Shown: one piece after another, positions 44,164-56,625 of the stretch
Position numbering within the stretch: the stretch's first letter is position 1
Layout: each line of letters starts with the position of its first letter
Origin: Aureispira anguillae
GTDB lineage: Bacteria; Bacteroidota; Bacteroidia; Chitinophagales; Saprospiraceae
NCBI RefSeq assembly: GCF_026000115.1
Contig: NZ_AP026867.1
Coordinates: forward strand, 2,649,716-2,713,715
DNA length: 64,000 bases
Direction: 5' to 3'
Program-made: the position numbers and the translations under genes
Notes under the pieces: model-generated
Told to the model about the DNA's origin: nothing
The model's input: only the letters and a program-made list of their open reading frames with translations
Databases searched by the model: none

Positions 44164-44312
44164 TTAACGCCCTTCTTAGTTGAATCATTAAATCCCAACG
44201 AATTTCTAAATCCTTTTGGAGCATAAAGCATCCCGAATCTTAAAATCAATCTAAAATTCGGGATCGTTTATTGTTAACAGCCCAATTGATCCTAATTAGC
44301 AATTTAGGTTTA

Positions 44313-45515
44313 TTAAATCAATGCCATTTTTTTGTTAAGTACCTCAGCATAAAATGCTTCTATTTGTACGCAAAAGTTATCCATAGAAAATTTTTGCAGG
44401 GCAATAGATTGACCGTTTTTGCCAATTTTTTCCCTTTTTGCAGGATTTGTTATTAAATCGCCAATGCTATCAGACAACACTTTGATGTTTTTTGCAGGAA
44501 CAAAAATGACCTCCTCTTCATTTTCGGGAATTTCATCAAACCCAGAAACCTCATTCAAAATCACAGGGCATCCCACAACCATACTTTCAATAGCAGAAAA
44601 CCCTAGCCCCTCTTTATAACTTGGCAAAACAACTAGATCAGATGCTTTTAATAAATCAGGCATATCGTTTCGTTGAACTTCCGTAATAATGCATTCAAAA
44701 TCTATATTTTTTGTTTTTTCTCTAACCTCTAATAGATATTCATTGGAGCCTGAGTTGGTGCTTCCAGCCAAAACGCAAACTATCGTTGATTTTAATTCAG
44801 ATGGCAAGGCTTGAATGGCATTTAGCAAATCCAACTGCCCTTTCCTTGGAGAAAATCGACTGGGGCAAGTTATGACCATCTTTTCATTTGAAACATTCAT
44901 GCCTTTTCTCCCCCTTTCTCTTTCCCCACTTGAAAATAAGTCTACATCTACAGCCGCAGCAATTCCAAAAACTCCCGCTTTGCACCCATGATTTTTGGCA
45001 ATATCAATATAATATTGACTGATCTGAACTAACCCATCCAAAGGCAAATGATAGATAAATTGTGACCGAGCAATTCCAAAAGGACTATCTTCAGTAGACA
45101 TTTCACAGGTGGTAGCCACTAGTTTGGGGCGAATCGCTTCAGGCATTCCCTTTATTGCAATTGAAGCAGACAATATGGTATCATGACTCAAAGCATGAAT
45201 AATATCAACCTTATTATTGACAATCGTTTTATGAATCGCCTCTGACCTAGAAAACATAGCCCACTCCCATCCAACATAACCATCTATACTGCCAAAAGTA
45301 GTACCTAAAATCGTAATAGATCCTCCAGTTTCTTCGATTTGTTGGATTACTTTTTCCCTAGGAGCCTCTGCGGTAATTAAATGCACTTTCATGGCTAACT
45401 TAACCAAAGAAAGTGTCAATACTTCTGCAAAAGTTTCTGCTCCTCCTGTTAACGGAGGCATTGTTGGAGCAACTACACATACCGATAGTGCTTTTCCCGC
45501 TTCAAATGATTTCAT
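44313..45515 (-). CDS. Glycosyltransferase family 4 (GT-B, group 1)
   Basis: 400 aa. C-terminal domain PSRFSPRKGQLDLL...DLVVLPSYKEGLGFSAIESMVVGCPVI is the E-x7-E GT4 retaining-GT signature region. Confidence 0.8.
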   Translation of the reverse strand: MKSFEAGKALSVCVVAPTMPPLTGGAETFAEVLTLSLVKLAMKVHLITAEAPREKVIQQIEETGGSITILGTTFGSIDGYVGWEWAMFSRSEAIHKTIVNNKVDIIHALSHDTILSASIAIKGMPEAIRPKLVATTCEMSTEDSPFGIARSQFIYHLPLDGLVQISQYYIDIAKNHGCKAGVFGIAAAVDVDLFSSGERERGRKGMNVSNEKMVITCPSRFSPRKGQLDLLNAIQALPSELKSTIVCVLAGSTNSGSNEYLLEVREKTKNIDFECIITEVQRNDMPDLLKASDLVVLPSYKEGLGFSAIESMVVGCPVILNEVSGFDEIPENEEEVIFVPAKNIKVLSDSIGDLITNPAKREKIGKNGQSIALQKFSMDNFCVQIEAFYAEVLNKKMALI

Positions 45516-45525
45516 TTTTTATATT

Positions 45526-46422
45526 TTAACTACTAATTCTTCTAAAAAAATAATTTCCTTCGCATACTTGTTGCTCTGGTTGATAGCCCAAATTCTTCAT
45601 CAAAACCAAGATGTCTTGATGACTTACATTAGCCTTTTTGAGTAGTGATTCTTTTATTTCAAAGATCAAACAACGTGGTTCAAATTTTTGAATAGAATTA
45701 CTCATTCCTTTTAGAATATCAAACTCAGCTCCTTCGGCATCAATTTTTATAACATCTATCTTATTTAGACTACTCTGTTTAATCCAGTCATCAAATTTGT
45801 GCACCTCAACCTCTTGGATAATTGCACCATTGCCAAAAAAAGATCGTACCGCAGCATCGTGTACGCCCCAATTTTTATCCCCATAGAGCGATAATGTTTC
45901 CGATTGATTTCCAAGCGCAATTTTTTGAAGGCTTATTGCAAGATGATTTGCTTTGCTGTTCTCTATAATTCTTTTTTGAGAATCGTTTGTCGGTTCAAAG
46001 GCGATTACTTGCCCCCCTCCTAACGATTTCAATTTTTGGGCAGCAACCAAAGAATGTATGCCTATATGAGCCCCCACATCAATAAAAACATCGTTAGGCT
46101 GCAACTCATTTCGGATAAGCGCTAAAGTTTGAGGTTCGTATTTCCCTGTAAAATAAATGCAGCGTTGAATATTATCTCTAAGGTCTAATGTCAAGTTTAA
46201 CCCCAAACGATTTGCTTTTACGATAGGATCAACATTCCACCACTTTGGTTGTAGTGACAAGGGCAATGGTTCTGAGATAAGATTAGGATCAACCAAACGC
46301 ATACAAGCACGTTCATAGCCCTGACTCGTCATTGAATCTTGTGTTAAAATTTTGGCGACATAAGGTCTAAGATATCGGATTGGTACTAATTTCTCCGCTT
46401 TTATTAAGGTGCTCAATTTCAT
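45526..46422 (-). CDS. FkbM-family methyltransferase
   Basis: 298 aa. DVFIDVGAHIGIHSL (SAM motif I) and IDVIKIDAEGAEFDILKG are typical FkbM. Confidence 0.75.
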   Translation of the reverse strand: MKLSTLIKAEKLVPIRYLRPYVAKILTQDSMTSQGYERACMRLVDPNLISEPLPLSLQPKWWNVDPIVKANRLGLNLTLDLRDNIQRCIYFTGKYEPQTLALIRNELQPNDVFIDVGAHIGIHSLVAAQKLKSLGGGQVIAFEPTNDSQKRIIENSKANHLAISLQKIALGNQSETLSLYGDKNWGVHDAAVRSFFGNGAIIQEVEVHKFDDWIKQSSLNKIDVIKIDAEGAEFDILKGMSNSIQKFEPRCLIFEIKESLLKKANVSHQDILVLMKNLGYQPEQQVCEGNYFFRRISS

Positions 46423-46452: not shown

Positions 46453-47649
46453 TTAAATTTTTAATGCACAACCCCTGCTTTCGAGTTTATTAACACGTCT
46501 TTTGATTTCAATAATATCACTGACAATACCACAAGTACATTTTACTTGCTCGTGCACCACTCCAAAGTCATCACTCAATACAAATCCAGGATAACTAACA
46601 GCAGTAGGGTCTGCAAAACTTAAAATCCCTAATTCTCCAGAGGCTTGAACGGTTAAATTTTGGGGATTTCTGGCTCTTGCATAAAGCCAAGGCGGACAAT
46701 GTTTTTTGTGGTGCTTGCATTCAAAAATAACTGTATTTAGCTCGACCATATTGTAAACATCTCGCACATACTCCTCGTTGAGCAAACCAAATGCTTCGAC
46801 AATTCGTTGCGTCAACTCCTTGCGCTCAACAATATCCCCTTGCCGAGATTTCCAACCTCCCATTGTCACAATTAAACATCGGTCTAGTAAATTTAAATTT
46901 CCTGTTTTGGCAAGCTCTTTGGTTGTATCCAAAACTAAAGCAGGAGGTCCAATAATGACAATCTTTTTGCCATTCTTATCTTGATCTACCTTTCTCAAAT
47001 CACTCACCAACTGTTCTACTTTAAATTCATCATTTGAAACATAAAATTTACTAGGAAAATAAAGTGAAACGCCTGTGATTACGTACGAAATCCAAAGGTG
47101 TTTAATCTCTTCAAGCTTGGGGCTAAGACAATATAAATCCAGATTAGATTGAGGAATTTCAAAAACCTCTTGAACCCCCGCTGCAACGGAAGCAAAAAAA
47201 CGCATTAATGTAGTATTATCCCTAGGCACCTGAGATACCGTCCCTTTTGTCCCACTACTTGTCGTAAGCATAACACTATCATCCCAGTTAGACTGTACAA
47301 ATTTTAAGTCATTTTTAAATATCGCAGAAGGTAAAAGAGGAATTTTATTTAAATCGAATTCATCCTCCTCTATATTAAAATTCATTCTTTTACAGTAATC
47401 TGCATAATAAGGGTTGCTATTAATATGATGACGAATAATTGCTTTCAAAAATTCTGTTAACTTCTTCCTGCTTTTATTAAAATCTTGCAAAAAAACATCA
47501 TCTGAGGATAGAAATTCATCAATCGCTGATATACCACCAACCTTATCTTCTACTAAATTATTTGATTTTAATCCCATTATTACTATTTTTTTTATTATCA
47601 ATATAAGTGCGGTATTGTGGATATTTATCTTGAAACCAATACTGCTCAA
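46453..47649 (-). CDS. luxE: LuxE-family acyl-protein synthetase (fatty acid--protein ligase)
   Basis: Colinear with Photorhabdus/Vibrio LuxE: MLTTSSGTKGTVSQVPRD (TSSGTxG), TMGGWKS, VELNTVIFECKHHKKHCPPWLYARARNP, SYPGFVLSDDFG, RRVNKLESRGCAL. An alternative start is the ATG at 47577. Confidence 0.8.
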   Translation of the reverse strand: MSSIGFKINIHNTALILIIKKIVIMGLKSNNLVEDKVGGISAIDEFLSSDDVFLQDFNKSRKKLTEFLKAIIRHHINSNPYYADYCKRMNFNIEEDEFDLNKIPLLPSAIFKNDLKFVQSNWDDSVMLTTSSGTKGTVSQVPRDNTTLMRFFASVAAGVQEVFEIPQSNLDLYCLSPKLEEIKHLWISYVITGVSLYFPSKFYVSNDEFKVEQLVSDLRKVDQDKNGKKIVIIGPPALVLDTTKELAKTGNLNLLDRCLIVTMGGWKSRQGDIVERKELTQRIVEAFGLLNEEYVRDVYNMVELNTVIFECKHHKKHCPPWLYARARNPQNLTVQASGELGILSFADPTAVSYPGFVLSDDFGVVHEQVKCTCGIVSDIIEIKRRVNKLESRGCALKI

Positions 47650-49057
47650 GATTCGGTCTTAAAGAGTAATACCTGCCCATATCCGACCATGGTCTTTCAA
47701 TGCTTACGAGCCTTACCATTGGATGCATTCCGTGCATTCCATCGTGCGTAAAACCTGATCGAAAAATACGAGACCACCCCAGTTCAACTAATCGACAAAT
47801 CCCATTTGACGCCCATTCATCTCGATAATCTTTTATAATCGACCACGGGTAAACACTTAAGGTCTGATTGTCTCTATTAAAATGTTTTGAAATAGCACTC
47901 AAATCATCTACAGGATGTATAAATATAGTTCTGGTCAGAGGATGATTAATTTCGTTTGCTTCTTCTTCATCCATTACCACAATTGCCCAGTCGTCTCCGT
48001 TTTCGACATTTAACCCTACATAATTTGCTTCCAAAAGAGAAATAGAACGGTTAGCTAAGACATCAATGTTTTTATTTAAAAAGGGGACATTTTTGGAAAA
48101 AACTTTAAAGTATTTTTTTAGTTCTACCAAAAAAGCATCTAAATCACCTTTTACATAGGCTCTTTGTGTATTAAAACAGGCTTCTTGATCGTAATACGAA
48201 CAATCTTCAATCAATCTAAAAGCAGCCTTTTCCATATCACATTGATTCAAGTCTATCGCACTAGCACTCCATCTTGGTCCATATTCTGCAAAAGGTACAT
48301 TTGCTGGTACCTTTTTCTTTATAGCTTCTACGGCACTTTTTCCTCCCCATACACAAACAGAGTCCGAGGCATTAATAAATGCGGTTCCTATCTCATCATT
48401 TTGATGCCAATACCCAAGGGATAAAGATCTTGTTATTGGATGATCTGGGTCTGCTTCAATAAAACATTGAACAAAACCTATTGGTGTTACAGGATCACGG
48501 CTGGGAAGTTTTGCAAAATTTCTGTTTTTTGTCATGATCCCCCGCAAAAGGCTGTAGATAGATGCCAATGGGAGATTTCCTACAAGATAATGCAAGGCTA
48601 AGCCCCTTGGGAAAGCACGCACGTATGACATCTGGGTAGGAATCCATTCGTCAAAAATCCTTTCATTACCAAACTCAGATTCAATTTGGTCATACATATG
48701 GAAACGTTGCATCATAAAATCCCCAATTGTCTTATAATCTCCCTCTATCACAATATCAGAATACTGTGTAAGTAGCGGAGCATAAGTTTCTGCCATTTTC
48801 CTTCCTTGCAAGGCAGATTGATCCCAAAGGTTTCCTACTTTATTTAGAAAAATAGCAATGTCAGAAGTTGTTAATTCTTGTAACTCTTTCGCTATTTTTT
48901 TTCCTTCTTCCAATACCAACTCTAAATCTTTAGCTGTAATTTTTGGCATTCTTATCTCTATCCCACTATCGTACCTAAACGTTACCCGCTCCTCATCCTC
49001 AGAAGAGAGGTAATATTGTTTACCATTAATTATTTTAGGCAAATCGATTGATTTCAT
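47558..49057 (-). CDS. luxC: LuxC-family acyl-CoA/acyl-protein reductase (fatty aldehyde-forming)
   Basis: 499 aa. [77 protein letters not shown] and [25 protein letters not shown] match LuxC block by block. Confidence 0.85.
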   Translation of the reverse strand: [499 protein letters not shown]

Positions 49058-49068
49058 AATTGATGTTT

Positions 49069-49623
49069 TCAGTTTTTAAAATATTTTTGAACAAAGCTTA
49101 ACAGGTCTAGACAAATATCTGTTGCATAAGCACTTTTGTCATTTTGCCTCCCTGACAGTAGGTGAATTCTTTGGGAAACACCAAAATTGATTCCTGCTTG
49201 CATGTCAGTGTCATGGTCGCCAATCATCCAACATTCAGAAGCTTTTTTATCAAAATCAATACAAGCTTGTTCCAGCATTCCTGTTTGAGGTTTACGACAA
49301 AAACAGGCATCTTCTGCCGTATGAGGGCAGTAATAAAATTTTATTTGATCGTTAGAAAGTTGAAGTGATTTTTGAATATAACAATTTGTATTTTCAACAA
49401 ATGTTTCTTCTATTAAACCACGACTGATTGGGGACTGATTTGTAACAACAGCAATCGGTATCCCCATTGAAGCAATAAATTGTAAAGCTTCTACCGAACC
49501 AGCAACAAATTCAATCTCATCAGACTTTAGAATATAAGGTTCCTTATGTTTCAAAATAACACCATCTCTATCGATCAGCAGTAGATTGGGTGGAGGGTTA
49601 TTTTTATTGAATAACGTACGCAT
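49069..49623 (-). CDS. gmhB: D-glycero-D-manno-heptose 1,7-bisphosphate phosphatase-like HAD-IIIA hydrolase
   Basis: 184 aa. LLLIDRDGVI (DxD nucleophile), AVVTNQSPISRG, CFCRKPQTGML (Zn-binding Cys-rich loop of GmhB), MIGDHDTDMQAG. Confidence 0.75.
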   Translation of the reverse strand: MRTLFNKNNPPPNLLLIDRDGVILKHKEPYILKSDEIEFVAGSVEALQFIASMGIPIAVVTNQSPISRGLIEETFVENTNCYIQKSLQLSNDQIKFYYCPHTAEDACFCRKPQTGMLEQACIDFDKKASECWMIGDHDTDMQAGINFGVSQRIHLLSGRQNDKSAYATDICLDLLSFVQKYFKN

Positions 49624-49633
49624 TGAATTATCA

Positions 49634-50164
49634 TTAATTTGAAGGATTTAATTCGTCCGATAAGCGTTTTAACACATCGGGAATATGGGATGGGAATGCA
49701 ATTTTTTCAGGCAAATGATTTATATCAAACCACTTGACCTGCCCTATTTCTATTCCATCTGGCAAAGCAAAAAAATCACCCATTGGTTCAGCGGTATAAT
49801 AGACACAAACATTCTCACCATAATCACTATGATCCGTAGGTTCCATCCAAATACCATGATACTCCTTAAGTTTGACCTTTATTCCAGTTTCTTCAAACAC
49901 CTCTCGAATAGCACAATCTTTAGGGTGTTCATTCCATTCACAATAGCCCCCTGGAATATCCCAGAAGCCATCCCATGGAGCAATCAACCGTTTCACCATT
50001 AACACTTTATTCTTATCTAGCACTAATGCTCCAGCGCAGCACCTTGGGTTTCTCCAAAATTCTGTATGACATTGAGAACACTTATAGGGCAACTCTTTGT
50101 TAGCAGGTGCTCCACAGTTTGAGCAAAAATTCATTTTATCTATTTTTTTTAGCAATAGCCTCAA
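49634..50164 (-). CDS. NUDIX hydrolase with N-terminal zinc ribbon
   Basis: CSNCG...CSQCH ribbon, then Nudix box GGYCEWNEHPKDCAIREVFEETGI. An alternative start is the ATG at 50134. Confidence 0.7.
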   Translation of the reverse strand: MRLLLKKIDKMNFCSNCGAPANKELPYKCSQCHTEFWRNPRCCAGALVLDKNKVLMVKRLIAPWDGFWDIPGGYCEWNEHPKDCAIREVFEETGIKVKLKEYHGIWMEPTDHSDYGENVCVYYTAEPMGDFFALPDGIEIGQVKWFDINHLPEKIAFPSHIPDVLKRLSDELNPSN

Positions 50165-50900
50165 TCGCTAGGTTTAATTTTGAAGAGTCATTGGGGAATC
50201 GTAAAAGGTGGACATCAGGAAGCGTTTCGAAAACAGTACTTGTTCTATCGGTTGCCTGAAAAATTTCTTCAAACCCAGCTTGCTTTAGCAAATTGGTCAG
50301 CATTGTTCGTGAAAGTAGACTTTTATGCTGTCCCCACTGATGCGAAAGGCGGTTAATAAATCTTGCTGAACGCATTCCATCATCGGGCCAGCGATGAATT
50401 TTTGAATCCTCCAAAACATCGTGATCCATTTCTGCCTGTTTTCCCATAATGATAAGTTCAGCAATGTTCTTTGCATCTGGGCAAACAATTCTAATTTTTC
50501 CTCCAGGAGCCAAAACTCGATAGCATTCTTTTAGTAAAAAACAAATATCATCATAGTAAAAATGCTCGATGATATGCTCAGCAAGAATCGCATCAACACT
50601 ATTGTCTTTGAGGGGCAGTTTTAAAAGTAAATTTACAGGATATACATTCTTACCCAATCGGTGGGTATCAAAACCAATCCATCCATCTGCAACCGTAGTT
50701 CCCGAACCAAGGGCAATATTAACTTGGTCTAAAGACGCTAAATGTTTTTCTAATTTTCGTACTTTTATTTGATTCTTAAACAACCGATATAGTTGTTTCG
50801 GAAAGGACAAAAATTCTTTTACTAGATCTTTTTTCGTTAGTGGCACAAATCCCCAATCATCCTTTTCATCAACTCTCCAATTTGGTTCTCTAGTTACCAT
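50136..50900 (-). CDS. Class I SAM-dependent methyltransferase
   Basis: 254 aa. IALGSGTTVADGWIGFD (motif I-like) and RVLAPGGKIRIVCPD (motif post-II). Confidence 0.65.
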   Translation of the reverse strand: MVTREPNWRVDEKDDWGFVPLTKKDLVKEFLSFPKQLYRLFKNQIKVRKLEKHLASLDQVNIALGSGTTVADGWIGFDTHRLGKNVYPVNLLLKLPLKDNSVDAILAEHIIEHFYYDDICFLLKECYRVLAPGGKIRIVCPDAKNIAELIIMGKQAEMDHDVLEDSKIHRWPDDGMRSARFINRLSHQWGQHKSLLSRTMLTNLLKQAGFEEIFQATDRTSTVFETLPDVHLLRFPNDSSKLNLAIEAIAKKNR

Positions 50901-51637
50901 AAATCTGCTTTTCTATGTGGCATTAAATCGATTAGCTTATCCAATGAGTCTACAGAAAACGTAGGCATTGGGATGGAGTTTAATGCCAAATTATTGTTCC
51001 CAATATAAACCGTTTTGTACCCTCTATTAATGGCAGGTAACATATCAGCCTCATAACTATTTCCAACAAATAGGACAAAGTCTTTAGGTGTTAAATTGAT
51101 TGTTTCCTCCAATTGCTTAAATACATTAGATGAAGGTTTTCGCCAGCCACATTCACTAGATAAAATGATCTCATCAAAATAGCCTCCTAATTGATGGGTC
51201 TCAAAGACTTTATTTAATAAAGACTTAGGGATTGCTGTATTTGAAAGGGCTATAATTTCTCCTCCACTCTCCTTTAAATCTTTTAGCAATTCTCTTGCTC
51301 CCTCCAAAGGAGTCAAATAAGTAGTTTCGGCTCCTCCAAAAAGCTGCCAAGCTACTTCTTCCAATATTTCTAACGAAATATTGAGTTTAAAATGATCGAG
51401 TGTATTTTGCAGTATCGTACTAGCAGGGATTTGGTCATCTGACAATCGAAAGTTTTCTTTCATCAATTGATCAATGCCATAATACAGCAATTGGGTCAAT
51501 GATTTTTCATCCATCCCCGTTTTTTCAATGAGCGCTTTGGGCAGTGCTTTTAATTCGGGCATTGCTTCATCAACTAACGTTCCTCCCAAATCAAAAACCA
51601 CGATATAGCGCCCTTCTGTGAAATTGTATTTATTCAT
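50894..51637 (-). CDS. HAD-IA family hydrolase/phosphatase
   Basis: 247 aa. VVFDLGGTLVDE (DxG motif I), ALSNT (motif II), VGNSYEADM (motif IV region). Confidence 0.7.
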   Translation of the reverse strand: MNKYNFTEGRYIVVFDLGGTLVDEAMPELKALPKALIEKTGMDEKSLTQLLYYGIDQLMKENFRLSDDQIPASTILQNTLDHFKLNISLEILEEVAWQLFGGAETTYLTPLEGARELLKDLKESGGEIIALSNTAIPKSLLNKVFETHQLGGYFDEIILSSECGWRKPSSNVFKQLEETINLTPKDFVLFVGNSYEADMLPAINRGYKTVYIGNNNLALNSIPMPTFSVDSLDKLIDLMPHRKADLW

Positions 51638-51651
51638 TGTTTATGTTTATT

Positions 51652-52440
51652 TTACCTTTGAAAGCCTCCTTCACTTGCTATGGTCTGACCAGTTATCCAC
51701 CGTGCATAATCACTATGTAAAAAATGCACCAATCGAGCAGCATCTTTGGGCATTCCCCATCTTCCAGAGGGGAACATATCTGCAACTTGATCGTATAGCT
51801 CACCAGTAAGATAACCAGTGTCCGTAGGACCTGGATTTACGCAGTTAACCCGAATGTTATGTGGTGCAAGTGCTGTAGCTACTTGCTGACACATTCCCCG
51901 AATGGCTTCTTTTGAAAGTGCATATGCAATTTCATCAATCATAGGTCCCAAGTATTGACCACTAGTAAATAAAGTGATTGCCCCTCCCTTTTCCTTATCT
52001 ATTTGTTGGGCAAACGCTTGAATCATAAGCATCGAAGCCCTTACATTAATAGAAAAATGATTGTCAATATGTTCTGATGTCCATTCAAAGATTGGAGCAT
52101 GAACAGAATAAGCATGATTTAGGATCAAACCATCTAAGCTACCTGTTACTTTAGTGGCAGCTTTTATGATTTTTTCTGGTTCATCTGATTTGGATAAATC
52201 AGACGGTGGCAATGCTGTTACTTGATAACCTTTAGCCCTAAGTTCCTTTTCCAAGGAAAATACAAAATCGGTCGTTGCATCTGGATAAGCTCGATCCTTA
52301 TCGTAATTGGAATTTCCATGAATAATAACATGACCTTTTGCTTTTGCACAAAGCTCTGTTATCGCCGTTCCGATGCCTAATGATCTACTAACCCCAGTTA
52401 CTAGTAAGGTTTGATTTTCTAAAGATAAATTACTTTCCAT
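51652..52440 (-). CDS. Short-chain dehydrogenase/reductase (classical SDR)
   Basis: 262 aa. LVTGVSRSLGIGTAI (TGxxxGxG) and a YxxxK-region in the mid-protein. Rossmann fold. Confidence 0.7.
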   Translation of the reverse strand: MESNLSLENQTLLVTGVSRSLGIGTAITELCAKAKGHVIIHGNSNYDKDRAYPDATTDFVFSLEKELRAKGYQVTALPPSDLSKSDEPEKIIKAATKVTGSLDGLILNHAYSVHAPIFEWTSEHIDNHFSINVRASMLMIQAFAQQIDKEKGGAITLFTSGQYLGPMIDEIAYALSKEAIRGMCQQVATALAPHNIRVNCVNPGPTDTGYLTGELYDQVADMFPSGRWGMPKDAARLVHFLHSDYARWITGQTIASEGGFQR

Positions 52441-53347
52441 TTTCTAATCGTCTATTTATAAATACGTTAGTTGGACCTTTTCTTCCTACTATTCCTTCAA
52501 AACCAGCATCTAAAAGCGCCTTGGTTATTTTCTTTCGATCAACATATTTGTCATGTATTTCTACAATCAAAATTCTTACTCTCTGAAACCATTTTGGATT
52601 GTCCAATATAGCAGGTTCCTCAGCTCCTTCAATGTCCATTTTTAATATATCCACAATATCCATATTATGGCGATCAAAAACAACATCTACAGGAATTGCT
52701 TCAACTTCTTCAGGAGGAAGTTTGTGGTTGTACTCAACACGTCCTTCATTAGATTGGCGTTTATCTGCAATGTCCTTATTAACAGTACTTGAACTCCACC
52801 ACTCATTTGGATACAAGGTTACAGATCCCACACTAGATTGAATCGCCGCAGTCTCAACCCCCCAAGAGAAATTATTATTTGAAGCATTTTTCTTTATCAT
52901 TTCTACGTTGTGGCTAACAGGTTCTACACAAACTACTTTTGCATTGGGAAACCTATTCTGAAAGTAAAGTGATGTTAATCCAATATTAGCCCCTAGATCC
53001 ACAACACTTTTGACATTCGGCACAATTGACTCATAATCAAAATCATAAATATTTTGTATAAAATTCTCTCTTAAGATATAGAGATCACTTTGATTTTGAC
53101 GAAACTCAAGCACCAAGGGTCTATTGTGTAGCGTAAGTTTAATTTTAGCAGTTTCTCTAGATATCAAAGGCTGAAAAAACATCCCCATGTGGTATTTTTT
53201 AAGCCAAAAAGCAAGCGTTTTAAATTCTTCTTTTGATACTTGTTCTTTTGCTTGTTTTTTTTCTTCAGACCATTCTGAAAATTGTCTTTTTGCCACTTGA
53301 TAGAGTGACATTTTGGGATCTCCATCCCGACGTAAGTACTTAAACAT
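52430..53347 (-). CDS. FkbM-family methyltransferase
   Basis: 305 aa. VVDLGANIGLTSLYF and ILKMDIEGAEEPAIL. Confidence 0.7.
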   Translation of the reverse strand: MFKYLRRDGDPKMSLYQVAKRQFSEWSEEKKQAKEQVSKEEFKTLAFWLKKYHMGMFFQPLISRETAKIKLTLHNRPLVLEFRQNQSDLYILRENFIQNIYDFDYESIVPNVKSVVDLGANIGLTSLYFQNRFPNAKVVCVEPVSHNVEMIKKNASNNNFSWGVETAAIQSSVGSVTLYPNEWWSSSTVNKDIADKRQSNEGRVEYNHKLPPEEVEAIPVDVVFDRHNMDIVDILKMDIEGAEEPAILDNPKWFQRVRILIVEIHDKYVDRKKITKALLDAGFEGIVGRKGPTNVFINRRLENGK

Positions 53348-53414: not shown

Positions 53415-54104
53415 TTATTTAGACCAATTCAAAAAACTTGAATAGGCTTTTGGTATTCCAATATGCATCGAAGGTTTTCCGTGGTTATAATAACCAAGCT
53501 TACCTAATGCTGCTAATGGTTTGAATAGATCGTCTTCGTTTAGAAATTCAAGTGGATCATTTTTTAAAACTGCTAACGCTTGTTTATCTATCACCATCAT
53601 TCCAACATCAACATGAGTCATTGCCCCATCATTCTTAGAATAGATTTTGATTCCATTGCTATCAAGCATTATATTTGCATTCTCCTTTGCTATTTCTTTT
53701 TCACAGACAGACAAACATGCCAGATGTTCATCCTTAACTGCATGGAGTAGTTTTTTCAGATCAACAGTAGGATATACGTCCCCATATGTAAAAATAAATT
53801 GGGGAGGCAGGCAACTTTCTGCAAATTTCAATGCTCCAATAACGCCTAATGGATAAGGTTCTATCGTGGCTGATATTTTCAAATTTCCATTTGATTGATG
53901 CAACCAATTCATAGCTGCCTCCCAAACCTGATCTGCCCCCACTCCTAACAATAAGTGAACACGTTCACAGTTCACACTAGACCAATAGTCTAATACTTTG
54001 TGAAGAAAAACCCCACTGGGAACAGGTGCTAAGATTTTAGGACTATCCTTAAGAATATCTTTCATTCTTGTTCCCTTTCCACCGCATGCTATTACAACTT
54101 CCAT
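53415..54104 (-). CDS. Sugar-phosphate nucleotidyltransferase (heptose-1-phosphate guanylyl/nucleotidyltransferase-like)
   Basis: 229 aa. N-terminal VVIACGGKGTRMKD is the NTP-transferase G-x-G-T-R motif. The heptose-1-P substrate is inferred from context. Confidence 0.7.
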   Translation of the reverse strand: MEVVIACGGKGTRMKDILKDSPKILAPVPSGVFLHKVLDYWSSVNCERVHLLLGVGADQVWEAAMNWLHQSNGNLKISATIEPYPLGVIGALKFAESCLPPQFIFTYGDVYPTVDLKKLLHAVKDEHLACLSVCEKEIAKENANIMLDSNGIKIYSKNDGAMTHVDVGMMVIDKQALAVLKNDPLEFLNEDDLFKPLAALGKLGYYNHGKPSMHIGIPKAYSSFLNWSK

Positions 54105-54110
54105 AAGATA

Positions 54111-54701
54111 TTATTTAGAAAGTCTTTTTCTTATTTCTGCGCAAATCACATGATGCAAGCAAACATGAATAGACTCTGTAACAGGCGTAATATATTCTTT
54201 CTCTGGTGTTGGAACGACTAAGGCGACATCGCATAATTTAGCAAATGTTCCTCCTCCTGCGCCCGCAAATCCAATTGTTTTGGCACCACGTGATTTTGCT
54301 AATTCAATAGCCTTTACAAGATTTCCAGACCATCCACTACCACCATGTACAGAAAACAGCACTAAAATATCATCTTTTTTAATCCATGGGTCCAACATTC
54401 CATACCAAGCATTTTCCCAATCTGTATCGTTGGTCCATGCTGTATGCGCACTATAATTACTAACTAAATCCAGTGTGCGAAACCCACCGTTGTCTCCTGT
54501 TGCATACTTTGCCAAATCAGCTACAAAATGAGCTGCTGTTGAAGCAGAGCCCCCATTACCAACAGAATAGATAACATTATCCGTTTTATGTACTGATAAA
54601 ATTAAATCTACTGCTTTTTGTACAGACTCTAAATCAACCTTTTGCATTGATTTAATCATTTCTTCGGTAGCTACTTGTAAGCTATTTTCTACTGTGTTCA
54701 T
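54111..54701 (-). CDS. gmhA: Sedoheptulose-7-phosphate isomerase (SIS domain, GmhA)
   Basis: 196 aa. VIYSVGNGGSASTAAHFVADL and ILVLFSVHGGSGWSGNLVKAIELAKSRGAKTIGFAG match GmhA. Confidence 0.8.
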   Translation of the reverse strand: MNTVENSLQVATEEMIKSMQKVDLESVQKAVDLILSVHKTDNVIYSVGNGGSASTAAHFVADLAKYATGDNGGFRTLDLVSNYSAHTAWTNDTDWENAWYGMLDPWIKKDDILVLFSVHGGSGWSGNLVKAIELAKSRGAKTIGFAGAGGGTFAKLCDVALVVPTPEKEYITPVTESIHVCLHHVICAEIRKRLSK

Positions 54702-54707
54702 CTTTCT

Positions 54708-55634
54708 TTATTTTAATTTAAATTCTTTTACTTTATTTACCCCTTCTGTTGAAACAGTTGTTTCGACGATTTTAAACTCAAGTTTTTTGAGCGCATTAAT
54801 CACTTGTGTTCGTGTTTCAGATTTTCCACTAATAAGTACAAACCCTCCTGCTCCTGCTCCAATTGCTTTAGCACCACTAGCCCCTTTCTCTATTGCAGTC
54901 TGTATAATGGTATCTATGGTATCTGTTGTTGCCTCTGGTAAGCGTTTACATTTTGCAGCCCAATGACGGCGTAAAATGTCACCAAACATTTCTCCATCTT
55001 TTAATAAAATTGCTTTTTCAACTTCTTCGACTGAAGCTGGACGAGAATCATCGGTTCCATCCACATAAGAAGCTCCTAGGCTTTTTAATATTTTGCTTGC
55101 GTTTCTGCGAATACCCGTTTCAACCAATACAAAATTGTGCTCAAAAAGATACGCTAGACCATCCAACAAATCATTGCGTTTTTTTACGCTTATCTCACCA
55201 TTGGAATTCGCTACCATTTCAACACAGCCCCCCACTGCTGACGCTAATTGATCCTGAAAGCCAACGGGTTGATTTAATATTTCTCGTTCCCACTTGTAGG
55301 CCTTCAATCCAATATCAAGAGGCGTTTCTATTTTTCCCTTTTTTAAAAAATTACTTGCTGCTACCAGAGCCACAGCCACAGCCCCACTCCCTCCTAAACC
55401 AGCGCCTGGGCTTACTTCTGATTTAATATTCACATTAAAATTGGGATGTTCTTTTTTAAATAAATCATTTAACTGCGTAGAGTCATGTTTTATATCTGTT
55501 CCTACCGAAACTTTGACTTTTAATTTTAGAGATACAGCCAAAAGATGCGCTCCTGATTTTAGATAACATTCAGGCAGGTCAGTCCCTCCTCCAGCTAGAG
55601 AAAGTCTCAGAGGAGCATAAAATTCTAAATTCAT
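54708..55634 (-). CDS. hddA: GHMP-family sugar kinase (D-glycero-D-manno-heptose 7-phosphate kinase-like)
   Basis: 308 aa. N-terminal APLRLSLAGGGTDLPEC and GHMP motif SPGAGLGGSGAVAVALV. HddA-like architecture. Confidence 0.7.
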   Translation of the reverse strand: MNLEFYAPLRLSLAGGGTDLPECYLKSGAHLLAVSLKLKVKVSVGTDIKHDSTQLNDLFKKEHPNFNVNIKSEVSPGAGLGGSGAVAVALVAASNFLKKGKIETPLDIGLKAYKWEREILNQPVGFQDQLASAVGGCVEMVANSNGEISVKKRNDLLDGLAYLFEHNFVLVETGIRRNASKILKSLGASYVDGTDDSRPASVEEVEKAILLKDGEMFGDILRRHWAAKCKRLPEATTDTIDTIIQTAIEKGASGAKAIGAGAGGFVLISGKSETRTQVINALKKLEFKIVETTVSTEGVNKVKEFKLK

Positions 55635-55695: not shown

Positions 55696-56625
55696 TCATA
55701 ATAGCGTAAGCCAATTAAATGTATCCTCCTTTCTACCTTCACATATACCTAAATAAGTTGTTTGTAGTTTTTGGGTAATCGGTCCAACTGCCCCATTTCC
55801 AATATCAATTTTATCAATACTAAGCACAGGAGTCAACTCCGCCAATGTTCCTGTAAGAAATATTTCATCTGCCCAGTAAAGTTCTGTTCTAGGAATATCT
55901 CTTTCAACTACCTGAATCTTGAAATGAGATCTTAAGAGATTAATACAATTACTTCTGGTAATACTTTCTAGAATTCCAGCAGAAATTGGAGGAGTAATCA
56001 CTTGACCATTTCTAACCATAAAAATAGTAGCTCCAGTAGTTTCAGCTACCAAACCTTTATCGTTCAACAAAATTGCTTCATCATAACCGCCATTAAGTGC
56101 ATCAATCATTGGTAGTTTAAAGGATTGATAAGCAGCTCCTGCTTTTAGCAAAGGCGACATACTCAAATCATTCATTCTTCTCCATGAGCTAACACAACAC
56201 TTAATTCCCTCTTGAATCGAGGGACTACGTTCAACAGGAAAAGCAACAATATAAGCTCCATTCTTCACCTCGCCATAGCCCTCACCATATCTACCTTTTT
56301 CAACATATACAGTAGGACGTACATAAATATGCCCTTCTAATTTTAGCGCATTAATTAAATCTATGATTCCAGCCTTAAGCTCTTCTTTAGTAAAAGGACT
56401 AGCAATGCGTAGGATTTTAAGCGCAGAAAATAACCTATTTAGATGTTGTTCAAGAGAGATCAAAGCATGAGATCCATCTTTTTGTTGATAACAACGTATC
56501 CCCTCAAATATATTCGCTCCACGTGTCGCTAATTCTGACCAAACATGAACCGTAGCATTTTCCCAAGGTTCTACGTTTCCATTAAACCAAATTAGAGAAG
56601 GCTGTTCCTGTTTTTTCATAATCAA
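55696..56625 (-). CDS. ilvE: Fold-type IV PLP aminotransferase, IlvE-like (branched-chain amino acid aminotransferase)
   Basis: 309 aa. IWFNGNVEPWENATVHVWSELATRGANIFEGIRCY, VRPTVYV and ETTGATIFMVRNGQVITPP..GILESITR are colinear with E. coli IlvE. Confidence 0.75.
   Translation of the reverse strand: MIMKKQEQPSLIWFNGNVEPWENATVHVWSELATRGANIFEGIRCYQQKDGSHALISLEQHLNRLFSALKILRIASPFTKEELKAGIIDLINALKLEGHIYVRPTVYVEKGRYGEGYGEVKNGAYIVAFPVERSPSIQEGIKCCVSSWRRMNDLSMSPLLKAGAAYQSFKLPMIDALNGGYDEAILLNDKGLVAETTGATIFMVRNGQVITPPISAGILESITRSNCINLLRSHFKIQVVERDIPRTELYWADEIFLTGTLAELTPVLSIDKIDIGNGAVGPITQKLQTTYLGICEGRKEDTFNWLTLL

What the first reader, a model, noticed from the sequence alone, without database searches (positions are those of the whole stretch)
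46453..49057. Adjacent, overlapping luxC-luxE pair with block-by-block conservation to luminous-bacteria LuxC and LuxE
LuxC-like: [43 protein letters not shown] and [16 protein letters not shown] are nearly the same as the Photorhabdus LuxC blocks ([59 protein letters not shown]). LuxE-like: TSSGTKG (adenylation P-loop analogue), VELNT..PPWLYARA, and the C-terminal GCAL with the acylated Cys region. In lux operons these genes are separated by luxAB. Here luxE starts 20-92 bp inside the 3' end of luxC, implying translational coupling and a 1:1 reductase:synthetase complex without luciferase.
Basis: partly seen in the sequence, partly recalled or inferred. Interest (0 to 1): 0.8.

Follow-up and report, generated by a model that had tools for sequence, protein, structure and literature searches.

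The report
LuxCDE-like aldehyde module in sugar operon
A non-luminous marine bacterium (Aureispira anguillae) carries intact relatives of all three enzymes that luminous bacteria use to turn a fatty acid into an aldehyde, with no luciferase nearby; they sit inside a 19-gene unusual-sugar operon that recurs in several phyla, which points to an undescribed glycoconjugate rather than to light production.

Summary
Window 47558-49057 (-) encodes a 499-aa LuxC homologue and 46453-47577 (-) a 374-aa LuxE homologue. Both match the P. phosphoreum LuxC-LuxE structure 7XC6 (E 4e-77 and 4e-61). Both acylated cysteines and the other mutationally important residues are present, and the genes overlap by 20 nt.

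- A LuxD homologue with an intact Ser/Asp/His triad opens the same 19-gene operon (61567 to 44313).
- The proteins belong to a rare non-luminous clade, 26-33% identical to the P. leiognathi Lux proteins and far below the NCBIfam equivalog cut-offs. The distal half of the acyl tunnel of LuxC is replaced by clade-conserved Thr/His/Gln/His/Tyr/Trp, so myristate is doubtful.
- The operon also encodes transaldolase, isomerase, kinase, phosphatase and nucleotidyltransferase, plus an epimerase, a Cys-less NDP-sugar dehydrogenase, a Gfo oxidoreductase and an aminotransferase. This is the same enzyme-family set as the lincosamide amino-octose pathway.

The operon recurs in Cyanobacteria, Bacillota, Frankia and metagenomes. 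Related LuxCDE triads sit in phosphonate and YcaO/ThiF clusters.

Tight LuxC-LuxE linkage is the norm outside luminous bacteria, and such pairs are already reported in glycosylation islands. No luciferase gene lies in the window. The substrate and the final product remain unknown.

The parts
47558..49057 (-). luxC-like acyl-thioester reductase gene (499 aa)
   Evidence: PF05893 E=7.8e-64. 7xc6_A E=4.3e-77 over residues 6-479. NCBIfam LuxC 315 bits against a cut-off of 750. 100% identical to the NCBI 'acyl-CoA reductase [Aureispira anguillae]'.
48176..48178 (-). codon of LuxC Cys294 ([10 protein letters not shown]), the predicted acyl-accepting cysteine
   Evidence: Aligns with PpLuxC Cys296. 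Invariant in 113 homologues. The codon is TGT.
46453..47577 (-). luxE-like acyl-protein synthetase gene (374 aa from the ATG at 47577)
   Evidence: PF04443 E=4.1e-61. 7xc6_E E=4.2e-61. NCBIfam LuxE 249 bits against a cut-off of 550. The 374-aa gene call appears in two independent assemblies.
46468..46470 (-). codon of LuxE Cys370 in the C-terminal RGCAL, the predicted self-acylated cysteine
   Evidence: Aligns with PpLuxE Cys364 in the motif TRxxKGCxLS. K243 (GGWK) aligns with K238, and R360/R361 with R354/R355.
47558..47577 (-). 20-nt overlap of the luxC 3' end and the luxE 5' end
   Evidence: Sequence read: AAT AAT GGG ATT AAA ATC AAA TAA, with the luxE ATG inside it. Gap table.
60737..61567 (-). 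luxD-like acyltransferase/thioesterase gene (276 aa), first gene of the operon
   Evidence: PF02273 E=2.7e-20. NCBIfam LuxD 82 bits against a cut-off of 420. 26% identity to P. leiognathi LuxD, E=1e-20. The SLSAR serine, the D of SDPWV and the H of SASHK align with the LuxD triad region.
59881..60543 (-). transaldolase / fructose-6-phosphate aldolase family gene
   Evidence: PF00923 E=1.4e-39. Follows luxD in L034, L035 and L036 as well.
58901..59884 (-). GalE-like SDR epimerase/dehydratase gene
   Evidence: PF01370 E=9e-47. Best PDB hit is the archaeal GalE-1 3ehe, E=9e-71.
57639..58904 (-). NDP-sugar dehydrogenase-family gene that lacks the catalytic cysteine (GGTLARD instead of GGSCFPKD)
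   Evidence: TIGR03026 279.6 bits. The alignment to UGDH 4a7p shows Cys replaced by Thr. 118 of the 120 best homologues share the GGTL(A/G)R(D/E) core, and all 120 have Thr in place of Cys.
56582..57646 (-). Gfo/Idh/MocA oxidoreductase gene
   Evidence: PF01408/PF22725. Always directly downstream of the Cys-less dehydrogenase.
55696..56625 (-). class IV (branched-chain-type) aminotransferase gene
   Evidence: PF01063 E=1.9e-45. NCBIfam IlvE models score above their cut-offs, 290 against 279. BCAT structures match at E=1e-70.
54708..55634 (-). GHMP sugar kinase gene (HddA-like)
   Evidence: PF00288/PF08544. HddA model 92 bits against a cut-off of 600.
54111..54701 (-). SIS sugar-phosphate isomerase gene (GmhA-like)
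   Evidence: PF13580. gmhA model 87 bits against a cut-off of 209.
53415..54104 (-). sugar-1-phosphate nucleotidyltransferase gene (HddC-like)
   Evidence: PF12804. HddC model 59 bits against a cut-off of 300.
52430..53347 (-). FkbM-family methyltransferase gene 1
   Evidence: PF05050 E=8e-17.
51652..52440 (-). FabG-like short-chain dehydrogenase gene (not present in every version of the cluster)
   Evidence: PF13561 E=2e-37. Absent in L005 and L035.
50894..51637 (-). HAD-IA phosphatase gene (nucleotidase-like)
   Evidence: PF00702/PF13419. NCBIfam hits.
50136..50900 (-). class I SAM methyltransferase gene
   Evidence: PF08241 E=1e-9.
49634..50164 (-). NUDIX hydrolase gene with an N-terminal Cys4 zinc-ribbon-like segment
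   Evidence: PF00293 E=5e-21. Weak NudC-like NCBIfam hit.
49069..49623 (-). GmhB-like HAD-IIIA sugar-bisphosphate phosphatase gene
   Evidence: NF006506 140 bits against a cut-off of 178.
45526..46422 (-). FkbM-family methyltransferase gene 2
   Evidence: PF05050 E=9.5e-27.
44313..45515 (-). GT4 glycosyltransferase gene, last gene of the operon
   Evidence: PF00534 E=4.6e-29. Conserved downstream of luxE in L005 and L006.
44230..44264 (-). terminator-like hairpin 49 nt after the GT4 stop
   Evidence: 15-bp stem, the only such site in 43400-44600. This is a consensus match only.

Best explanation
luxC (47558-49057) and luxE (46453-47577), together with the luxD-like gene at 60737-61567, encode a complete LuxCDE-type module that reduces a carboxylic acid to an aldehyde. 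The module belongs to a rare non-luminous clade.

Inferred steps, by homology to the characterised Photobacterium enzymes:
- LuxD (Ser/Asp/His) captures or releases an acyl group.
- LuxE adenylates the acid with ATP (TSSGTKG loop; K243/R361) and parks it as a thioester on its C-terminal Cys370.
- The flexible LuxE tail hands the acyl group to LuxC Cys294.
- NADPH then releases the aldehyde.

There is no luciferase here. The module is an integral part of a 19-gene, tightly packed operon (61567 to 44313). The rest of that operon builds and decorates a nucleotide-activated higher-carbon amino sugar. The building steps are transaldolase, SIS isomerase, GHMP kinase, GmhB-type phosphatase and nucleotidyltransferase. 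The tailoring steps are an SDR epimerase, a Cys-less NDP-sugar dehydrogenase, a Gfo oxidoreductase and an aminotransferase. Three methyltransferases, NUDIX and HAD hydrolases and one GT4 transferase follow.

The distal acyl tunnel of LuxC is remodelled, so the acid is probably not myristate but a shorter or more polar acyl group.

My best guess for the fate of the aldehyde (inference only): it is joined to the amino group of the sugar as an N-alkyl or N-acyl type substituent, or it is reduced to the alcohol that GT4 glycosylates. Either route would give a small methylated glycoconjugate rather than a polysaccharide.
For: Shown:
- Homology and catalytic residues. LuxC Y289, C294, F295, D332, Q398, F432, H438 and D439 are identical to PpLuxC Y291, C296, F297, D335, Q402, F436, H442 and D443. 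LuxE K243, R360, R361 and C370 match K238, R354, R355 and C364. The LuxD triad region aligns.
- C294, D332, Q398 and D439 are invariant in 113 homologues, together with the GN.P...N....K block shared with canonical LuxC.
- Operon structure. All 18 junctions are 193 nt or shorter, 8 of them overlap as ORFs are listed, and a terminator-like hairpin follows GT4.
- The same gene order (luxD, TAL, epimerase, DH, Gfo, AT, kinase, SIS, NTP-transferase, FkbM ... NUDIX, GmhB, luxC, luxE, GT4) is seen in part or whole in a Bacillota MAG, Halotia wernerae and four metagenome contigs. A Frankia symbiont carries the same gene set in a different order.
- In Frankia the same sugar genes are joined to a LuxE-D-C set from a different LuxC clade, and in L025 to a third. 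The pairing of sugar pathway and Lux-type module is therefore maintained despite module replacement.
- LuxC, LuxE and LuxD are linked in 24 of 27 genomic loci.
- Tunnel remodelling. PpLuxC L107, W111, M114, S118, A121, T169, T465, I472, L478 and F483 become G, T, D, Q, H, Y, G, P, W and Y. T, H/D, Q, H, Y and W are conserved across the 52-member clade. L478W inactivates PpLuxC, which the authors suggest may block the tunnel exit.
- No polysaccharide export or polymerase gene, and only one GT, lie in the operon.

The enzyme-family set matches the assigned lincosamide amino-sugar enzymes LmbR/N/P/K/O and LmbM/L/Z/S. The Cys-less DH + Gfo + epimerase + TAL/SIS/kinase/phosphatase/NTP-transferase block recurs even in Dehalococcoidales and Bathyarchaeia.
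Against: - No biochemical data exist for any member of this clade. Substrate, cofactor and product are all inferred.
- The tunnel argument rests on a sequence alignment to one cryo-EM structure, not on a structure of this protein.
- The Frankia version of the cluster uses a LuxC with a more canonical, hydrophobic tunnel (W111 kept) and has a LuxA-like gene beside it. That would fit a long-chain aldehyde after all.
- The sugar enzymes score well below the heptose-pathway equivalog cut-offs. LmbL was not among the 120 best named homologues of the dehydrogenase. The octose or lincosamine-like reading is therefore only a family-level analogy.
- The aminotransferase looks like a genuine branched-chain amino-acid transaminase. 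It may act on an amino or keto acid rather than on the sugar.
- A luciferase elsewhere in the 7.58-Mb genome was not excluded.
Confidence: 0.55

Rival explanations
1. This is a classical long-chain fatty acid reductase. LuxD takes a C14-C16 acyl group off acyl-ACP, and LuxE/LuxC make the fatty aldehyde. The aldehyde either becomes the lipid tail (alkyl or N-alkyl) of a glycolipid made by this operon, or feeds a luciferase-like monooxygenase encoded elsewhere in the genome.
For: - All three subunits are present with catalytic residues intact.
- The only characterised relatives reduce myristate.
- The Frankia version of the same sugar cluster has a LuxC with W111 and hydrophobic tunnel residues, next to a LuxA-like gene that is 33% identical to LuxA.
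- A GT4 and an adjacent transporter would suit an amphiphilic product.
Against: - None of the 10 distal tunnel residues is conserved. They are replaced by clade-conserved polar or bulky residues, including Trp at the position where L478W kills PpLuxC.
- Bit scores are 315, 249 and 82 against equivalog cut-offs of 750, 550 and 420.
- There is no LuxA/B in the window.
- Close relatives of this LuxC (58% identity) sit in a phosphonate cluster, where a C14 aldehyde has no obvious role.
Confidence: 0.25
2. This is an RfbN-like side-chain pathway. LuxE/LuxC reduce one carboxyl of a small di-acid or hydroxy/amino acid, as proposed for 3-deoxy-L-glycero-tetronate in V. cholerae O1. The FabG-like SDR reduces the aldehyde to an alcohol, and the resulting hydroxy-acyl group is transferred (by LuxD?) to the amino group of the sugar.
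For: - There is precedent for LuxC/LuxE-domain proteins in amino-sugar N-acyl side-chain synthesis and in flagellin glycosylation islands.
- The clade has polar His/Gln/Tyr tunnel residues.
- An amino sugar is predicted in the same operon, and a FabG-like SDR is present.
Against: - The ACP and AMP-ligase that accompany LuxC/LuxE in those systems are absent, and no intergenic space exists for an ACP gene.
- RfbN-like 800-900-aa proteins, which I take to be LuxC-LuxE fusions, are only about 25-29% identical to this LuxC.
- The SDR is missing from two versions of the cluster.
- A second activation step for amide formation is not encoded.
Confidence: 0.15
3. LuxC/LuxE act on a sugar carboxylate and reduce an NDP-uronic (or aldonic) acid made by the neighbouring dehydrogenases back to an aldehyde for further chemistry.
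For: A UDP-glucose dehydrogenase-family gene and a Gfo/Idh/MocA oxidoreductase are in the operon.
Against: - The dehydrogenase-family protein lacks the catalytic Cys needed for the second oxidation to the acid (Thr in GGTLARD), as do its 120 best homologues. No uronic acid is therefore expected.
- The same DH-Gfo pair occurs without LuxCDE in Dehalococcoidales and Bathyarchaeia.
- The LuxCDE triad occurs without sugar genes in most loci.
Confidence: 0.03

Closest known systems
LuxC-LuxE(-LuxD) fatty acid reductase complex of luminous bacteria (P. phosphoreum, PDB 7XC6; luxCDABE operons)
   Same: - Same three protein families, with full-length alignments.
- The acylated Cys of LuxC and of LuxE are retained, as are LuxE K238/R354/R355, the LuxC entry residues Y291/F297/Q402/F436/H442/D443 and the D335-R354 interface pair.
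- The LuxD Ser/Asp/His region aligns.
   Different: - Only 26-33% identity to the P. leiognathi Lux proteins, far below the NCBIfam equivalog cut-offs.
- No luxAB in the window.
- Gene order is D...(13 genes)...C-E instead of C-D-A-B-E.
- All 10 distal tunnel residues differ.
- The module is embedded in a sugar-nucleotide operon.
LuxC/LuxE genes of flagellin glycosylation islands (Aeromonas group II, Enterobacteriaceae) and V. cholerae O1 RfbN (tetronate side chain)
   Same: LuxC/LuxE-family proteins without luciferase, inside glycan-biosynthesis loci, next to a glycosyltransferase. Their function there is likewise only inferred.
   Different: - Those cassettes carry ACP, an AMP-dependent ligase and FabG, and no LuxD. 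Here there is a LuxD and no ACP or ligase.
- 800-900-aa relatives, which I take to be RfbN-like fusions, are much more distant, about 25-29% identity.
- There are no pseudaminic-acid or flagellar genes here.
Lincosamide amino-octose pathway (LmbR/N/P/K/O then LmbM/L/Z/S, GDP-octose to GDP-lincosamide)
   Same: - Same enzyme families. Building steps: transaldolase, SIS isomerase, GHMP kinase, GmhB-type phosphatase, nucleotidyltransferase. Tailoring steps: SDR epimerase, NDP-sugar-dehydrogenase family, Gfo/Idh/MocA oxidoreductase, aminotransferase.
- The tailoring genes are adjacent.
   Different: - The aminotransferase is fold-type IV (BCAT-like), not the LmbS type.
- LmbL was not among the top named homologues, and no sequence comparison with Lmb proteins was possible.
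- No LmbC/D/N-CP condensation system, and no mycothiol or ergothioneine steps. LuxCDE occupies the place of an acyl-supplying system.
- The host is a Bacteroidota species, not Streptomyces.
GDP-D-glycero-alpha-D-manno-heptose pathway (GmhA, HddA, GmhB, HddC)
   Same: The best-scoring NCBIfam models for the isomerase, kinase, phosphatase and nucleotidyltransferase are these four.
   Different: All four score below the curated cut-offs: 87/209, 92/600, 140/178 and 59/300. A dedicated transaldolase and a Cys-less DH + Gfo pair accompany them, which is not part of the heptose pathway.

Membership tests
LuxC, long-chain-fatty-acyl-CoA reductase of lux operons (NCBIfam NF052251 equivalog) | Full-length LuxC (PF05893) domain | tested here: met
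   PF05893 E=7.8e-64, profile positions 3-400 of 401. 7xc6_A residues 4-472 align.
LuxC, long-chain-fatty-acyl-CoA reductase of lux operons (NCBIfam NF052251 equivalog) | Acyl-accepting catalytic cysteine (PpLuxC Cys296; Cys286 in the older numbering) and the entry residues whose mutation abolishes activity (F297, Q402, F436, H442, D443) | tested here: met
   C294, F295, Q398, F432, H438 and D439 are identical. S166 is replaced by Ala. C294 is invariant in 113 homologues.
LuxC, long-chain-fatty-acyl-CoA reductase of lux operons (NCBIfam NF052251 equivalog) | Equivalog-level sequence similarity (curated cut-off 750 bits) | tested here: not met
   315.4 bits. 31% identity to P. leiognathi LuxC.
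LuxC, long-chain-fatty-acyl-CoA reductase of lux operons (NCBIfam NF052251 equivalog) | Long hydrophobic L-shaped tunnel that holds a C14 chain (L107, W111, M114, S118, A121, T169, T465, I472, L478, F483) | tested here: not met
   None of the 10 positions is identical. They read G, T, D, Q, H, Y, G, P, W and Y, and are conserved within the clade. This is alignment-based, not structural.
LuxC, long-chain-fatty-acyl-CoA reductase of lux operons (NCBIfam NF052251 equivalog) | Linkage to luxAB luciferase genes | tested here: not met
   tblastn of P. leiognathi LuxA and LuxB against the window gives best E of 1.3 and 0.97. The rest of the genome was not searched.
LuxC, long-chain-fatty-acyl-CoA reductase of lux operons (NCBIfam NF052251 equivalog) | NADPH-dependent reduction of an acyl thioester to an aldehyde | not testable with these tools
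   Needs an enzyme assay.
LuxE, acyl-protein synthetase (NCBIfam NF052244 equivalog) | LuxE (PF04443) domain without the ANL C-terminal subdomain, ending in a short Cys-bearing tail | tested here: met
   PF04443 E=4.1e-61, profile positions 14-385 of 391. 374 aa, ending ...KRRVNKLESRGCALKI.
LuxE, acyl-protein synthetase (NCBIfam NF052244 equivalog) | Adenylation pair K238/R355, interface R354 and acylated Cys364 | tested here: met
   K243 (GGWK), R360, R361 and C370 align. The motif TRxxKGCxLS is only partly kept, as KLxxRGCxLK.
LuxE, acyl-protein synthetase (NCBIfam NF052244 equivalog) | Equivalog-level similarity (cut-off 550 bits) | tested here: not met
   248.9 bits. 33% identity to P. leiognathi LuxE.
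LuxD, acyl transferase (NCBIfam NF052253 equivalog) | PF02273 fold with the Ser/Asp/His triad | tested here: met
   PF02273 73 bits against a cut-off of 20.3. The SLSAR serine, the D of SDPWV and the H of SASHK align with P. leiognathi LuxD. The identity of the triad residues comes from my knowledge of the V. harveyi LuxD structure.
LuxD, acyl transferase (NCBIfam NF052253 equivalog) | Equivalog-level similarity (cut-off 420 bits) | tested here: not met
   81.8 bits. 26% identity.
RfbN / glycosylation-island LuxC-LuxE cassette | Accompanying acyl carrier protein and AMP-dependent ligase (and FabG) | tested here: not met
   None of the 19 operon genes has a PP-binding or AMP-binding Pfam hit. 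The largest intergenic gap is 193 nt. A FabG-like SDR is present.
Lincosamide-type NDP-amino-octose pathway | Presence of all nine enzyme families (LmbR, N, P, K, O, M, L, Z, S) | tested here: inconclusive
   Eight families are present. The aminotransferase is of a different fold type. The comparison is at family level only.
Lincosamide-type NDP-amino-octose pathway | Specific sequence relationship to the Lmb/Ccb proteins, and a C8 sugar product | not tested
   Lmb sequences were not obtainable here. LmbL was not among the 120 best named hits. The key paper (PMC7547251) is not held.
GDP-glycero-manno-heptose pathway | GmhA, HddA, GmhB and HddC at equivalog level | tested here: not met
   All four are the best-scoring models but fall below their cut-offs.

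The most novel reading that the evidence does not exclude
The LuxCDE triad of this clade may be a mobile, substrate-retuned cassette that turns a carboxylate into an aldehyde and that unrelated biosynthetic clusters plug in: NDP-amino-sugar, phosphonate and YcaO/ThiF-type clusters. In this operon it would supply a non-fatty aldehyde or acyl unit that is coupled to a lincosamine-like amino-octose. The product would be an undescribed family of methylated glycoconjugates made by Bacteroidota, Cyanobacteria, Bacillota and Frankia.
Probability: 0.3. Interest if true: 0.7.

Novelty: new variant of a known kind. Interest (0 to 1): 0.5.

Why it matters
LuxCDE is textbook bioluminescence chemistry and a much-used reporter and aldehyde-production tool, yet only the luminous-bacteria enzymes have been characterised.

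Here a rare sister group keeps all the catalytic machinery but has a remodelled substrate tunnel. Only 81 of 1.84 billion representative proteins match this LuxC at E<=1e-30. The group travels as a three-gene cassette through several kinds of biosynthetic cluster.

If its substrate is not a fatty acid, it would be a new ATP/NADPH-dependent carboxylate reductase with a built-in carrier thiol, which would interest biocatalysis.

The surrounding operon is conserved across at least four phyla. It pairs this module with a sugar pathway whose enzyme set mirrors lincosamide amino-octose synthesis. That gives a concrete and testable genome-mining lead to an unknown glycoconjugate.

Tried and rejected
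- I looked for a luciferase. tblastn of P. leiognathi LuxA, LuxB and LuxG against the window found nothing.
- I considered that LuxE/LuxC reduce a uronic acid made by the neighbouring dehydrogenase. I rejected this because that protein and its 120 best homologues lack the catalytic Cys.
- I considered that the LuxC aldehyde is the acceptor of the operon's transaldolase. I set this aside because a GmhB-type bisphosphate phosphatase implies a phosphorylated acceptor such as a pentose or tetrose phosphate. This is inference.
- I tried to tie the dehydrogenase to LmbL by name in a homologue search. It was not among the top 120.
- I tried to obtain Lmb sequences or the 2020 PNAS and 2012 JACS papers. 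They are not held.
- The context look-up for the Rathayibacter toxicus homologue failed.
- Literature searches found no description of this operon. The terms were LuxC/LuxE with heptose, natural product, YcaO or phosphonate, and Aureispira gene clusters.
- The sigma-70 promoter scan is uninformative for Bacteroidota, and its count was at chance level.
- Convergent tunnel residues among the three LuxC clades that serve the sugar cluster were not seen, so a common substrate could not be argued from sequence.

Full report
**1. What is at the coordinates**

On the minus strand, 47558-49057 is a 499-aa ORF. The ORF at 46453-47649 is 398 aa if it starts at a TTG.

Pfam assigns the first ORF to LuxC (PF05893, E=7.8e-64, profile 3-400 of 401). 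It assigns the second to LuxE (PF04443, E=4.1e-61). Against all PDB sequences, each protein hits only one entry. These are the two chains of the P. phosphoreum LuxC-LuxE cryo-EM complex 7XC6, at E=4.3e-77 and 4.2e-61, aligned almost end to end.

The LuxC sequence is 100% identical to an NCBI protein of Aureispira anguillae (Bacteroidota, 7.58-Mb chromosome).

**2. Start codon and overlap**

The 24 residues between the TTG (47649) and the ATG (47577) have no counterpart in PpLuxE. The ATG gives 374 aa against 373 aa for PpLuxE. Gene calls on two independent assemblies also use the ATG.

The DNA reads ...AAT AAT GGG ATT AAA ATC AAA TAA, with the luxE ATG embedded in it, so the overlap is 20 nt.

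This overlap is not a special feature of the pair. Eight of the 18 junctions between consecutive ORFs overlap by 4-44 nt as listed (some depend on the start chosen). The orthologous luxC-luxE junctions elsewhere show a 4-nt overlap (L005), a 4-nt gap (L006) or a 21-nt gap (L. weilii).

**3. Catalytic residues**

The residue numbering in the 7XC6 paper equals the PDB chain index plus 11; this fits all 19 named residues. On that basis:
- LuxC Cys294 (codon 48176-48178) matches the acylated Cys296.
- Y289, F295, Q398, F432, H438 and D439 match Y291, F297, Q402, F436, H442 and D443.
- D332 matches D335, which forms a salt bridge to LuxE R354.

In LuxE:
- K243 (GGWK) matches K238.
- R360 and R361 match R354 and R355.
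- Cys370 (RGCAL, codon 46468-46470) matches Cys364.

C294, D332, Q398 and D439 are invariant across 113 homologues that include luminous species.

Both proteins look catalytically competent.

**4.

Thirteen genes upstream on the same strand, 60737-61567 encodes a 276-aa protein of the LuxD family (PF02273, 73 bits; best NCBIfam model LuxD). It is 26% identical to P. leiognathi LuxD (E=1e-20). The serine of the SLSAR motif, the Asp of SDPWV and the His of SASHK align with the LuxD triad region.

From luxD (61567) to a GT4 glycosyltransferase (44313) there are 19 genes, with junctions of 193 nt or less. A terminator-like hairpin follows at 44230-44264.

The genes, in order, are:
- luxD
- a transaldolase/FSA
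- a GalE-like SDR
- an NDP-sugar-dehydrogenase-family protein
- a Gfo/Idh/MocA oxidoreductase
- a class IV aminotransferase
- a GHMP kinase
- a SIS isomerase
- a nucleotidyltransferase
- an FkbM methyltransferase
- a FabG-like SDR
- a HAD phosphatase
- a class I methyltransferase
- a NUDIX hydrolase
- a GmhB-like phosphatase
- luxC
- luxE
- a second FkbM methyltransferase
- GT4

No LuxA or LuxB homologue is detectable anywhere in the 64-kb window (best tblastn E about 1).

**5. Relationship to canonical Lux proteins**

- Identity to the P. leiognathi proteins is 31% (LuxC), 33% (LuxE) and 26% (LuxD).
- Scores against NCBI's equivalog models are 315/750, 249/550 and 82/420. The proteins are family members but not equivalogs.
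- An exhaustive HMMER scan of 1.84 billion representative proteins finds only 81 at E<=1e-30 and 563 at E<=1e-10, so the close family is small.
- The 800-900-aa proteins in that list, which I take to be RfbN-like LuxC-LuxE fusions, are only about 25-29% identical.
- In a neighbour-joining tree the window protein falls in a clade with orthologues from the same operon in other organisms. Leptospira weilii, Rathayibacter toxicus and Cellulomonas also fall there, well apart from the luminous-bacteria clade.

**6. Substrate tunnel**

The 7XC6 study describes a hydrophobic L-shaped cleft longer than 40 angstroms that holds the myristoyl chain, and it names the residues lining it.

The residues near the entry are conserved here, but all ten distal or exit residues differ. 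L107, W111, M114, S118, A121, T169, T465, I472, L478 and F483 become G, T, D, Q, H, Y, G, P, W and Y.

In the 52 sequences that are at least 43% identical to the window protein, the replacements are themselves conserved: T (40/52), H or D (40/52), Q (33/52), H (41/52), Y (48/52) and W/Y/F at position 478 (51/52). L478W inactivates PpLuxC, and the authors suggest it may block the exit.

I infer a shorter or more polar acyl substrate than myristate. This rests on alignment only.

The same signature occurs in clade members from quite different gene contexts. That suggests one common building block for the clade.

**7. The operon is conserved and mobile**

The same gene order, in part or whole, occurs in:
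- a Bacillota MAG (L005) and a JGI metagenome contig (L006);
- the cyanobacterium Halotia wernerae (L034) and two ENA contigs (L035, L036), all starting with luxD then the transaldolase.

The same gene set in a different order occurs in a further MAG (L025) and in the Frankia symbiont of Coriaria (L029).

In Frankia the sugar genes are joined to a LuxE-LuxD-LuxC set that is closer to canonical Lux: its LuxC is 36% identical to P. leiognathi and 30% to the window protein. A LuxA-like gene, split between two frames, lies beside it. In L025 the LuxC belongs to yet another clade.

Replacement of the module while the association persists argues that the sugar pathway needs a Lux-type activity.

**8. 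The triad as a cassette**

In 27 loci from species-representative genomes, LuxE lies within the locus in 26 and a LuxD homologue in 24. The usual orders are E-D-C or D-C-E. The surrounding genes vary widely:
- PEP mutase plus a phosphonopyruvate-decarboxylase-like TPP enzyme, a MetRS-like protein, a cupin and an FAD oxidase in L. weilii;
- two nitroreductase-family proteins and a ThiF-like protein in Solirubrobacteraceae and Mycobacteriales loci, with the nitroreductase pair also in two Sphaerisporangium loci;
- a YcaO protein, ThiF-rhodanese and a class II tRNA-synthetase-like protein in Marinimicrobium and a Legionella MAG, the latter also with an asparaginase, a class V aminotransferase and an ABC exporter.

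Tight LuxC-LuxE(-LuxD) linkage without luxAB is thus the rule outside luminous bacteria. The luxCDABE order is the exception.

**9. The sugar part**

The isomerase, kinase, phosphatase and nucleotidyltransferase hit the GDP-glycero-manno-heptose enzymes (GmhA, HddA, GmhB, HddC) best, but all are below their cut-offs.

The dehydrogenase-family protein has Thr where UDP-glucose dehydrogenases have the catalytic Cys: GGTLARD against GGSCFPKD in 4a7p. All 120 best homologues share this, so no uronic acid is expected.

Members of this Cys-less family in a Dehalococcoidales MAG and a Bathyarchaeia MAG sit in the same block: SDR epimerase, DH, Gfo, with TAL, SIS and NTP-transferase nearby, plus GHMP kinase and HAD in the Dehalococcoidales locus.

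This family set is the one assigned to the lincosamide amino sugar:
- LmbR transaldolase
- LmbN isomerase
- LmbP kinase
- LmbK phosphatase
- LmbO guanylyltransferase
- LmbM epimerase
- LmbL dehydrogenase
- LmbZ oxidoreductase
- LmbS aminotransferase

LmbM, LmbL, CcbZ and CcbS convert GDP-octose to GDP-lincosamide.

I could not compare sequences with the Lmb proteins, and LmbL was not among the named top hits. The parallel is therefore a lead, not a membership claim.

The aminotransferase here is a branched-chain-type fold IV enzyme that scores above the IlvE cut-offs. That differs from LmbS and leaves its substrate open.

The operon has one glycosyltransferase and no flippase, polymerase or polyprenyl-phosphate transferase. 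A peptide-transporter-like MFS gene follows in Aureispira (not co-oriented in one transcript), and ABC transporter genes lie downstream in L005. I infer a small glycoconjugate rather than a polysaccharide.

**10. Mechanism proposed**

Shown: three intact Lux-type proteins, co-oriented and tightly packed with a sugar-nucleotide pathway, and a conserved association across phyla.

Inferred by homology:
- LuxD captures an acyl group.
- LuxE adenylates the acid and thioesterifies it on Cys370.
- The acyl group is transferred to LuxC Cys294.
- NADPH-dependent release gives an aldehyde.

Speculative: the aldehyde (or its acyl precursor) is attached to the amino group of the sugar, or it is reduced to the alcohol that GT4 glycosylates. 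The three methyltransferases then decorate the product.

The fact that modules lacking the aminotransferase (L038, L039) also lack LuxCDE fits a link between the amine and the Lux product, but this rests on two loci only.

**11. Comparison with the literature**

LuxC/LuxE genes without luciferase are already reported next to glycosyltransferases in Aeromonas and enterobacterial flagellin glycosylation islands. There they occur with ACP, FabG and an AMP-ligase, and no function has been proven. They are also reported in V. cholerae O1 RfbN.

The present case differs in four ways: it has LuxD instead of ACP and ligase, it is much closer to canonical LuxC/LuxE, it has a remodelled tunnel, and it partners a lincosamine-like sugar pathway.

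I found no paper describing this operon.

**12. Verdict**

- This is a new variant of a known kind of system. It is a good genome-mining lead of moderate interest.

Noticed in passing
window 57639-58904; loci L038 8001-9299 and L039 3854-5149: There is a large family of 'UDP-glucose 6-dehydrogenase'-annotated proteins with GGTLARD (Thr) in place of the catalytic-Cys motif GGSCFPKD. In every locus I examined, the gene sits between an SDR epimerase and a Gfo/Idh/MocA oxidoreductase, with TAL, SIS and nucleotidyltransferase genes nearby and usually a GHMP kinase and a GmhB-like HAD. This holds in bacteria (Dehalococcoidales) and archaea (Bathyarchaeia). They are probably mis-annotated as uronic-acid-forming enzymes.
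   Followed up: partly
L029 6253-7757, L030 11447-12463, L031 17268-18290: LuxA-like luciferase-family monooxygenase genes lie directly beside LuxE-LuxD-LuxC sets in actinobacterial genomes: the Frankia symbiont of Coriaria, an Ilumatobacteraceae MAG and a Solirubrobacteraceae MAG. They are 23-33% identical to P. leiognathi LuxA (E down to 1e-42). The LuxC proteins of L029 and L030 form the sister group of luminous-bacteria LuxC in an NJ tree. The Frankia copy is split between two reading frames.
   Followed up: partly
L003 6758-20299 (Leptospira weilii JQRO01000099.1): The LuxC (58% identical to the window protein), LuxE and LuxD triad is embedded in a putative phosphonate cluster. Its neighbours are PEP mutase, a phosphonopyruvate-decarboxylase-like TPP enzyme, a 745-aa NAD_binding_9 protein, a double cupin, a MetRS-like protein, an FAD oxidase, a methyltransferase and an aminotransferase.
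   Followed up: no
L011 4485-11512; L018 7941-18300; L023 897-16990: The LuxCDE triad lies next to RiPP- or peptidyl-nucleotide-like machinery. In L011 this is two nitroreductase-family proteins and a ThiF-like protein. In L018 (Marinimicrobium) and L023 (a Legionella MAG) it is YcaO, ThiF-rhodanese and a truncated class II Asp/Lys/Asn-tRNA-synthetase-like protein. L023 also has an asparaginase, a class V aminotransferase and an ABC exporter.
   Followed up: no
L014 (Kitasatospora phosalacinea NRRL B-16230, contig12.1): The producer of the phosphinothricin peptide phosalacine also carries a LuxD/LuxE/LuxC triad (LuxC 43% identical to the window protein), flanked by very long ORFs. The ORF calls in this high-GC locus are unreliable, and the context was not annotated.
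   Followed up: no
window 20575-22194 (+): A stand-alone 539-aa protein matches all three AprA-type domains: AprA N-terminal, winged helix and MT2-like methyltransferase (E=3e-118). In my recollection these domains are known from the apratoxin PKS loading module.
   Followed up: no
window 4723-7734 (+) and 31192-34707 (-): Two very large proteins (1003 and 1171 aa) carry type IX secretion C-terminal sorting domains (Por_Secre_tail) with FG-GAP/DUF7619 and DUF7948/SBBP repeats. This fits a gliding Bacteroidota host.
   Followed up: no
window 49634-50164 (-): The NUDIX hydrolase of the operon has an N-terminal CxxC...CxxC segment and a weak NudC (NAD diphosphatase) match. In the Bacillota version (L005), PnuC-like NMN transporter genes lie downstream of the cluster, after two ABC transporter genes. 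Whether the target is the NDP-sugar or a nicotinamide cofactor is unclear.
   Followed up: no
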